Of a DNA stretch of 64,000 bases, positions 62,343-63,253 are shown piece after piece. Each line of letters starts with the position of its first letter. Position 1 is the stretch's first letter. The notes beneath the pieces are model-generated. The model saw nothing but the letters and a program-made list of their open reading frames with translations, did no database searches and had not been told where the DNA came from. Origin of the DNA: Haliotis cracherodii (lineage: Eukaryota); assembly GCF_022045235.1 (NCBI RefSeq), contig NW_027266279.1, forward strand, positions 2,976,001 through 3,040,000, in the 5' to 3' direction. The position numbers were made by a program, and so were the translations under genes.

Positions 62343-62812
62343 GTGGCTGTCACATGACATATGTGGGGACGTACCGTAGTCCTCGATGTGGTTGAAGACA
62401 GACTGAGTGACTGTCACATGACACATGTGGGGACCTACCATAGTCCTCGGTGTGGTTGAAGACGGACTGAGTGACTGTCACATGACACATGTGGGGACCT
62501 ACCATAGTCCTCGGTGTGGTTGAAGACAGACTGAGTGACTGTCACATGACACATGTGGGGACCTACCATAGTCCTCGGTGTGGTTGAAGACAGACTGAGT
62601 GACTGTCACATGACATATGTGGGGACCTACCATAGTCCTCGGTGTGGTTGAAGACAGACTGAGTGACTGTCACATGACATATGTGGGGACCTACCATAGT
62701 CCTCGGTGTGGTTGAAGACAGACTGAGTGAATGTCACATGACACATGTGGGGACCTACCATAGTCCTCGGTGTGGTTGAAGACGGACTGAATGACTGTCA
62801 CATGACACATGT
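62343..62812 (-). repeat. 64-bp tandem array containing the 3' end and donor of the CSTF1 exon 63109-63253 (7 extra donors)
   Basis: Minus-strand unit CAGTCYGTCTTCAACCACACCGAGGACTAYG|GTAGGTCCCCACAT... Confidence 0.95.
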
Positions 62813-62814
62813 AA

Positions 62815-63091
62815 GGTTGGTTGGTTGGTTTGTTGTTTAACGCCGCACCCAGCAATATTTCAGCTATATGACGGCCGTCTGTTAATAATAGAGTCTGCAT
62901 CAGACAATCCAGTGATTGATATCATGAGCATCGATCCACACAATTGGGATCAATGCTCATGACATGTATCAACCAAGTCAGCGAGCCTGACCACCCGATC
63001 CCGTTAGTCGCTTTTTACGACAAGCATAGTCGCCTTTTACGGCAAGTATGGGTTGCTGAAGACCTATTCTACCCCGGAATCTTCACGGGTC
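62815..63091 (-). mobile_element. SINE family A inserted ~16 nt from the CSTF1 donor
   Basis: Consensus match; ACATGT on both sides. Confidence 0.9.
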
Positions 63092-63108
63092 GACATGTGG
63101 GGACCTAC

Positions 63109-63253
63109 CGTAGTCCTCGGTGTGGTTGAAGACGGACTGTGTGCGATGCTCCTGCTTCCCCGTGGCACCGGCGCCGGTGTACATGATGAGGCAGCGGTTG
63201 GTGGACAACTCCCACAGCTTCACCAGCGAGTCCTTGCCACTTGATAAAATGTA
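63109..63253 (-). CDS. CSTF1: CSTF1 (cleavage stimulation factor 50 kDa, WD40) exon [16 protein letters not shown]...VFNHTEDY
   Basis: Translation closely matches the C-terminal WD40 repeats of CstF-50; cacag| acceptor and |gtaggt donor. Upstream exons were not found and probably lie beyond the window. Confidence 0.93.

What the first reader, a model, noticed from the sequence alone, without database searches (positions are those of the whole stretch)
62343..63140. CSTF1 exon end and donor amplified seven times, forming potential in-frame 36-nt micro-exons, with a later SINE between array and true donor
Seen: a 64-bp unit repeats the last ~31 nt of the exon plus its GTAGGT donor. Each unit has GTGACAG exactly 36 nt before the donor, so a phase 1-1 cassette would add V(T/I)[10 protein letters not shown] in frame to the WD40 region. 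A family A SINE interrupts the unit nearest the exon (ACATGT on both sides), so it arrived after amplification and moved the array ~280 nt away, enough to create a spliceable intron. Caveat: the polypyrimidine tract is poor and the 28-nt spacers prevent joining adjacent cassettes. CstF-50 is a core 3'-end processing factor.
Basis: partly seen in the sequence, partly recalled or inferred. Interest (0 to 1): 0.7.

Follow-up and report, generated by a model that had tools for sequence, protein, structure and literature searches.

The report
Splice-donor "mirage" minisatellite in abalone CSTF1
The end of one exon of an abalone RNA-processing gene, with its splice signal, is repeated seven times in the next intron, but the one assembled transcript whose junction could be read uses the original signal, so this is likely a harmless example of a repeat type already known from human and lancelet genes.

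Summary
The array is real. A 64-bp unit (last 31 nt of CSTF1 exon 11 plus first 33 nt of intron 11) is repeated seven times, with a degenerate eighth copy. A SINE-like element with a 6-bp target duplication splits the authentic copy. Six of seven units, not all, have the AG for a 36-nt in-frame cassette.

The micro-exon reading is not supported. In one RNA run a single contig joins 63109 directly to 61840 and no contig carries an array unit (contigs drop rare forms). Abalone RefSeq proteins lack the insert, as do all 121 homologues checked. The pseudo-acceptors are weak, in-frame cassettes arise in 26-44% of simulated duplications, and the SINE is not needed for intron length. The array also occurs in DNA runs under two other organism labels, with differing units.

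It matches human F7 intron 7 and amphioxus "mirage" repeats. Two more such repeats lie in the neighbouring neprilysin gene, and this scan noted the type before, in this genome and others. New member of a known kind; low interest.

The parts
63109..63253 (-). CSTF1 exon 11 (145 nt), ends ...NHTEDY plus one base; authentic donor follows at 63108
   Evidence: RNA contig piece ends exactly at 63109 in 4 of 4 runs
63093..63108 (-). First 16 nt of intron 11: authentic donor GTAGGT and first target-site copy ACATGT (63098-63093)
62813..63092 (-). SINE-like interspersed repeat (280 nt), microsatellite tail facing the array; family not assigned
   Evidence: 3380 first-look candidates in G000, other scored full-length copies 91-93% identical; 20 other hits in 84 kb; no tRNA gene or Rfam match
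62807..62812 (-). Second target-site copy ACATGT
62342..62812 (-). 64-bp minisatellite: 31 nt exon end + 33 nt intron start, seven extra donors (last exon-like base 62759, 62695, 62631, 62567, 62503, 62439, 62375)
62759..62794 (-). Unit 1 pseudo-exon (36 nt, AG before, GT after); equivalents at 62631-62666, 62567-62602, 62503-62538, 62439-62474, 62375-62410; 62695-62730 lacks the AG
   Evidence: no use seen in RNA
62312..62346 (-). Degenerate eighth copy of the exon end, no donor
   Evidence: about 25 of 35 letters match unit 6; a less decayed unit with the same variant letters occurs in runs X7 and X10
62021..62300 (-). Second, different SINE-like element with a 13-bp target duplication (62008-62020, 62301-62313), abutting the degenerate copy
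   Evidence: (D11)
61760..61840 (-). CSTF1 exon 12 (81 nt), starts VLFPDE
   Evidence: joined directly to 63109 in the X12 contig
60494..60606 (-). CSTF1 last coding exon 13

Best explanation
This is a minisatellite made by tandem duplication of a 64-bp stretch spanning the CSTF1 exon 11 donor, later split by a SINE-like insertion, and its extra splice signals are likely silent because splicing picks the first donor. Shown: the unit's make-up, the target duplication, the array in three organism labels with differing units, and the direct exon 11-12 junction in one RNA run. Inferred: expansion and homogenisation by slippage or unequal exchange; preference for the most upstream donor (shown for human F7, not tested in abalone); weak pseudo-acceptors that keep the 36-nt pseudo-exons undefined; and tolerance by selection because any use of a downstream donor ends in a premature stop.
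For: RNA run X12: 1 contig of 477,030 records is laid on 63080-63300; its loose letters before 63109 equal window 61811-61840 and those after 63255 equal the end of exon 10, so it is spliced 10-11-12 with no insert; DNA contigs of 31-69 nt from array units were laid in the same call, so unit-bearing contigs are detectable. In 4 of 4 RNA-guess runs (3 studies) the exon lies inside one longer contig whose matching piece stops at 63109. The cluster of abalone CSTF1 has 2 members, both 431 aa with NHTEDY-VLFPDE. Of 121 homologues 108 keep the same spacing after the motif, 1 differs by one residue, 8 are truncated or read into intron, 4 lack the motif, 0 have a tandem copy (120 of 245 hits were listed). 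The pseudo-acceptors have 5 pyrimidines in -14..-4 and G at -5, against 6-9 and C/T in 12 of 12 true acceptors; 12-18% of 753 decoy AGs score as high. All 7 donor extensions stop at residue 375 and all 28-nt cassettes at 380. In-frame stop-free cassettes arise in 44% (loose) or 26% (strict) of 14,245 virtual duplications. Minisatellites fill 10.5 of 84 kb here (14 arrays), and two more span neprilysin splice sites.
Against: Contigs drop rare forms, so low-level inclusion is not excluded; junction letters were read in one run only, tissue unknown; the tool skipped 62745-62841, so unit 1 was not tested there. The acceptor model has only 12 training sites, and 2 of 12 true acceptors score below the array acceptors. 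The array donors match the U1 consensus as well as the true one (6 of 9 each). The array has persisted under three organism labels, and 2 of 3 changes in the exon-derived part are synonymous, although both are CpG C-to-T changes at third positions. CBS and 6-16 do use downstream pseudo-donors (PMC1557585, introduction).
Confidence: 0.85

Rival explanations
1. The array leaks: a small share of transcripts use a downstream donor or a 28-nt cassette, meet a premature stop and are degraded, so unit number or the SINE slightly tunes CSTF1 output, as reported for CBS and 6-16.
For: Array donors equal the true donor in U1 match; all such products stop early; decay would hide them from contigs; human precedents (PMC1557585, introduction).
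Against: No unit-bearing contig in X12. In this allele the nearest pseudo-donor is 350 nt away, making a 495-nt exon; in F7 use of pseudo-sites fell with distance (PMC1557585, section 6).
Confidence: 0.1
2. A 36-nt unit is included as an in-frame micro-exon in some tissue, giving a 443-aa CstF-50 with a duplicated strand-turn segment looped out of one WD40 blade.
For: 6 of 7 units have AG-36 nt-GT in frame with no stop; the duplicated residues 357-367 cover a short strand, a five-residue turn and the first residue of the next strand in the model of P0121, so looping out is conceivable; amphioxus mirages were proposed as a route to new exons (PMC3087553, passages).
Against: Direct junction only in X12; no insert in abalone RefSeq proteins or 121 homologues; weak acceptors and a competing frameshifting AG 8 nt downstream; the in-frame layout is common by chance.
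Confidence: 0.04
3. The array is an assembly artefact.
For: Tandem repeats are prone to misassembly (general knowledge).
Against: Units differ from each other by 0-7 letters in an ordered pattern, and independent DNA runs X5, X7 and X10 hold 64-nt units.
Confidence: 0.01

Closest known systems
Human F7 intron 7 37-bp VNTR (Borensztajn et al. 2006, PMC1557585; read abstract, introduction, section 6 and discussion), which also lists LMNB2, PDGF intron 4, CBS intron 13 and 6-16 intron 2
   Same: First unit spans the exon-intron boundary, the donor is reiterated several times in the intron, and only the first donor is seen in use (F7, LMNB2, PDGF).
   Different: Unit holds 31 nt of exon rather than 4, so each copy is a potential pseudo-exon; a SINE-like element separates the authentic donor from the copies; host is a mollusc; length polymorphism is only suggested here; no minigene test.
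Amphioxus 'mirage' repeats in Adh3, BflGb6, BflGb9, troponin C and PGBD5 (PMC3087553 and PMC3902484, passages read; the Adh3 and troponin C papers not seen)
   Same: Tandem copies of a gene's own exon-intron boundary in an invertebrate, many but not all with AG/GT signals, homogenised in the middle and divergent at the edge, reported not to disturb splicing, and proposed as raw material for new exons.
   Different: Different phylum; interrupted by a retroposon; somatic instability not tested here.
Haliotis SINE families (Matetovici et al. 2016, PMC4758252; passages and section 10 read)
   Same: Short high-copy element with target duplication and a 3' short tandem repeat; no tRNA gene detected, as would fit an LP-SINE.
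   Different: No sequence comparison was possible: the supplement search found nothing in 4 files and 1 file was not searchable, so the family is not assigned.

Membership tests
Boundary-spanning minisatellite (F7-type VNTR / mirage) | Tandem unit copied from the gene's own exon-intron boundary | tested here: met
   31 nt exon end + 33 nt intron start, 2-6 differences from the authentic copy over 64 nt
Boundary-spanning minisatellite (F7-type VNTR / mirage) | Reiterated intact splice signals in the intron | tested here: met
   7 GT donors, each 6 of 9 matches to the U1 consensus like the true donor (consensus recalled)
Boundary-spanning minisatellite (F7-type VNTR / mirage) | Mature mRNA uses the authentic site | tested here: met
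   Direct 63109-61840 junction in X12; major form only, rare forms not excluded
Boundary-spanning minisatellite (F7-type VNTR / mirage) | Concerted evolution with divergent edge units | tested here: met
   Units 2-6 differ by 0-2 letters, unit 7 by 4-7, eighth copy degenerate
Boundary-spanning minisatellite (F7-type VNTR / mirage) | Variable copy number between alleles | tested here: inconclusive
   Run X5 (organism A) holds a unit type absent from the window at depth 77 against 14 for the exon; contigs give no copy number
Boundary-spanning minisatellite (F7-type VNTR / mirage) | Pseudo-donors activate when the first is mutated | not testable with these tools
   Needs a minigene
Alternative in-frame micro-exon | AG and GT flanks, length a multiple of three, no stop | tested here: met
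   6 of 7 units
Alternative in-frame micro-exon | Inclusion seen in RNA or protein | tested here: not met
   Not in X12 contigs, 2 abalone cluster members or 121 homologues; contigs miss rare forms
Alternative in-frame micro-exon | Acceptor with a pyrimidine tract like true acceptors | tested here: not met
   Below 12 of 12 true acceptors in T fraction and near-AG pyrimidines; small training set
SINE | Short, high-copy, interspersed, target duplication, 3' tandem-repeat tail | tested here: met
SINE | Small-RNA-derived or LINE-derived head matching a named family | tested here: inconclusive
   No tRNA or Rfam hit; no reference sequence obtained

The most novel reading that the evidence does not exclude
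A mirage array shared by several abalone species feeds an in-frame 36-nt micro-exon into CSTF1 in some tissue or stage, at a level set by unit number and the SINE, which would be a caught-in-the-act case of exon birth from a boundary minisatellite in a core 3'-end processing factor.
Probability: 0.05. Interest if true: 0.6.

Novelty: new member of a known kind. Interest (0 to 1): 0.12.

Why it matters
As it stands, little: it is one more boundary-spanning minisatellite whose extra signals appear unused. It is a tidy natural test case for first-donor preference outside mammals, because the SINE moves identical donors 280 nt further away and units can be told from the exon by single letters. If inclusion were found, it would support the proposed route from mirage repeats to new exons. 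Two paper searches found no description of such repeats in abalone in the held library, which lacks most subscription journals.

Tried and rejected
Searches used the wrong reading frame for exon 11 and found nothing; redone. mis-set exon boundaries from exon 8 and exon 9 onward; their acceptor scores were discarded and redone.

SINE presence in other animals: no contig of X5, X7 or X10 covers the SINE head at 63080-63092. This would fit SINE-free alleles, but it is only a hole, no contig joins unique exon sequence across the site, X10 was read to about 88%, and the copy is 7-9% from its nearest scored relatives, which argues for some age. Not used as evidence. One search was swamped by SINE contigs and skipped 62745-62841, so zero depth there is no evidence.

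Selection on the coding sense of the units: rejected, three changes only and both synonymous ones are CpG decay. Enrichment of arrays at splice sites: 3 of 64 sites against 0.56 expected (P about 0.02), but 2 of the remaining sites once the given one is set aside (P about 0.11), so not shown (the CSTF1 donor was counted by hand because the SINE moves it outside the TRF span). A paper search for CSTF1 cassette isoforms gave nothing relevant among 15 listed of 2,520 (listing only). The longer isoform was not modelled; only the native protein was folded.

Full report
Gene and organism. The region lies in intron 11 of a minus-strand CSTF1 (CstF-50) gene. Exon 63253-63109 matches human CstF-50 at E 1.7e-24. 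With 20 kb fetched beyond the window, 13 exons translate to 431 residues identical to P0121, labelled Haliotis rufescens and H. cracherodii, so the animal is an abalone. The exon and the repeat unit are found at this locus only in G000.

The array. TRF reports period 64, 7.4 copies, 96% matches at 62342-62812. Each unit is the last 31 nt of exon 11 plus the first 33 nt of the intron. There are seven extra donors. Six units have GTGACAG 36 nt before the donor; unit 2 has GTGACAT; unit 7 has GTACGT and one amino-acid change. Units 2-6 differ from each other by 0-2 letters, unit 7 by 4-7, and a degenerate eighth copy at about 62312-62346 matches at about 25 of 35 letters. This is the usual minisatellite pattern of homogenised middle and decayed edge.

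The insertion. A 280-nt repeat (63092-62813) sits 16 nt into the intron with ACATGT on both sides; removing it restores the 28-nt spacer. It is high-copy: 3380 first-look candidates, 40 scored, other full-length copies 91-93% identical. It behaves as a SINE, but no family could be assigned. Since the units carry the uninterrupted spacer, the first duplication came before the insertion; later expansion could have come on either side of it. The insertion was not needed for a spliceable upstream intron: without it units 2-7 would lie 92-412 nt from the donor (a minimum intron of roughly 60-70 nt is recalled, not measured). Its tail beside unit 1 is A/C-rich.

Other animals. DNA runs X5 (organism A), X10 (D) and X7 (B) all hold array units: X10 and X7 show joints going back 51 with 13 spacer letters between, which is the 64-nt unit, and X5 shows spacer letters at loose ends. 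X5 holds a unit identical to the authentic exon end with an uninterrupted spacer, a combination absent from the window, and X7 and X10 hold a less decayed unit with the variant letters of the eighth copy. So the array is shared under three organism labels and its units turn over.

RNA. Only assembled contigs were available. In 4 of 4 RNA-guess runs from 3 studies the exon lies inside one longer contig (806, 1518, 2001, 1231 nt) whose matching piece ends at 63109; that call skipped 62745-62841 and did not display the junction letters. On a cleaner stretch, X12 (organism A, no differences in the exon, depth 31) gave exactly one contig: its loose letters equal window 61811-61840 on one side and the end of exon 10 on the other. 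It is therefore spliced, joins exon 11 directly to exon 12, and no other contig of that run carries a unit, although unit-sized DNA contigs were laid in the same call. Contigs drop rare variants, so this shows the major form only.

Protein. The abalone cluster has 2 members, both 431 aa without insert. Of 121 homologues, 108 keep the same spacing after the motif, 1 differs by one residue, 8 are truncated or run into intron, 4 lack the motif, and none has a tandem copy. In the model of P0121 (mean pLDDT 85.3) the duplicated residues cover a short strand, a turn (362-366) and the start of the next strand, so an insert might loop out; structure alone does not forbid it.

Splice signals and chance. 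The 36-nt acceptors have 5 pyrimidines in positions -14 to -4 and G at -5; all 12 true acceptors have 6-9 and C or T. On a small weight matrix they score -0.3 to 0.6, against a leave-one-out median of 3.9 for true sites; 12-18% of 753 decoy AGs score as high, and 2 of 12 true sites score lower. A second AG 8 nt downstream scores as well or better and frameshifts. All donor extensions stop at residue 375. Across 14,245 virtual duplications over the 12 CSTF1 donors, an in-frame stop-free cassette appears in 44% (YAG anywhere, at least 9 nt) or 26% (intronic YAG, at least 24 nt); for this donor the figures are 16% and 11%. The in-frame layout needs no special cause.

Context. Fourteen arrays of 150 bp or more fill 10.5 of 84 kb, some built from SINE pieces. 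In the neighbouring neprilysin-like gene (722 of 722 aligned residues matched) a 57-bp array copies an acceptor (30351) and a 31-bp repeat copies a donor (45709). Three of 64 splice sites are thus affected against 0.56 expected, which is not significant once the given case is set aside.

Comparison. Human F7 intron 7 has a 37-bp VNTR spanning the donor with only the first site used; LMNB2 and PDGF are alike, while CBS and 6-16 use the nearest pseudo-donors (PMC1557585). Amphioxus mirages are the invertebrate counterpart, reported not to disturb splicing and proposed as a source of new exons (PMC3087553, PMC3902484). Earlier notes of this scan report the same type in this genome and others and gave the lead to the term mirage (unchecked AI notes, not used as support).

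Verdict. A real but ordinary splice-donor minisatellite with a SINE-like insertion; its extra signals are likely silent (0.85). Leaky unproductive use (0.10) and an in-frame micro-exon (0.04-0.05) remain open until raw reads are examined.

Noticed in passing
window 30055-30362 (+): 57-bp array of 5.4 copies built from an intron end, its AG and the first 10 nt of a 33-nt exon (30352-30384) of the neprilysin-like gene; the last copy is the annotated acceptor.
   Followed up: partly
window 45700-45791 (+): 31-bp repeat of 3 copies built from the end of the neprilysin exon carrying the HExxH motif and its donor at 45709.
   Followed up: partly
window 25170-49582 (+): Neprilysin-like (M13 peptidase) gene, at least 21 exons, converging on CSTF1; a 34-bp array (49627-49976) lies just after its stop codon.
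   Followed up: partly
window 61240-61691: 50-bp, 9-copy array in CSTF1 intron 12 built from the head of the same SINE family, starting about 70 nt after the exon 12 donor. An 81-bp array at 14235-14648 looks built from the second SINE family (by eye).
   Followed up: no
window 62913-62971: The inserted SINE copy carries a local 25-nt inverted repeat and about 6 extra letters relative to other copies, possibly a template-switch event.
   Followed up: no
window 60833-61093 and 62813-63092: Two copies of the SINE lie in opposite orientation in introns 12 and 11, flanking exon 12 (85-91% complementary arms); they could pair in the pre-mRNA.
   Followed up: no
window 53591-54706 (-): Broken reading frames that look like a decayed LINE reverse-transcriptase region (by eye; not searched).
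   Followed up: no
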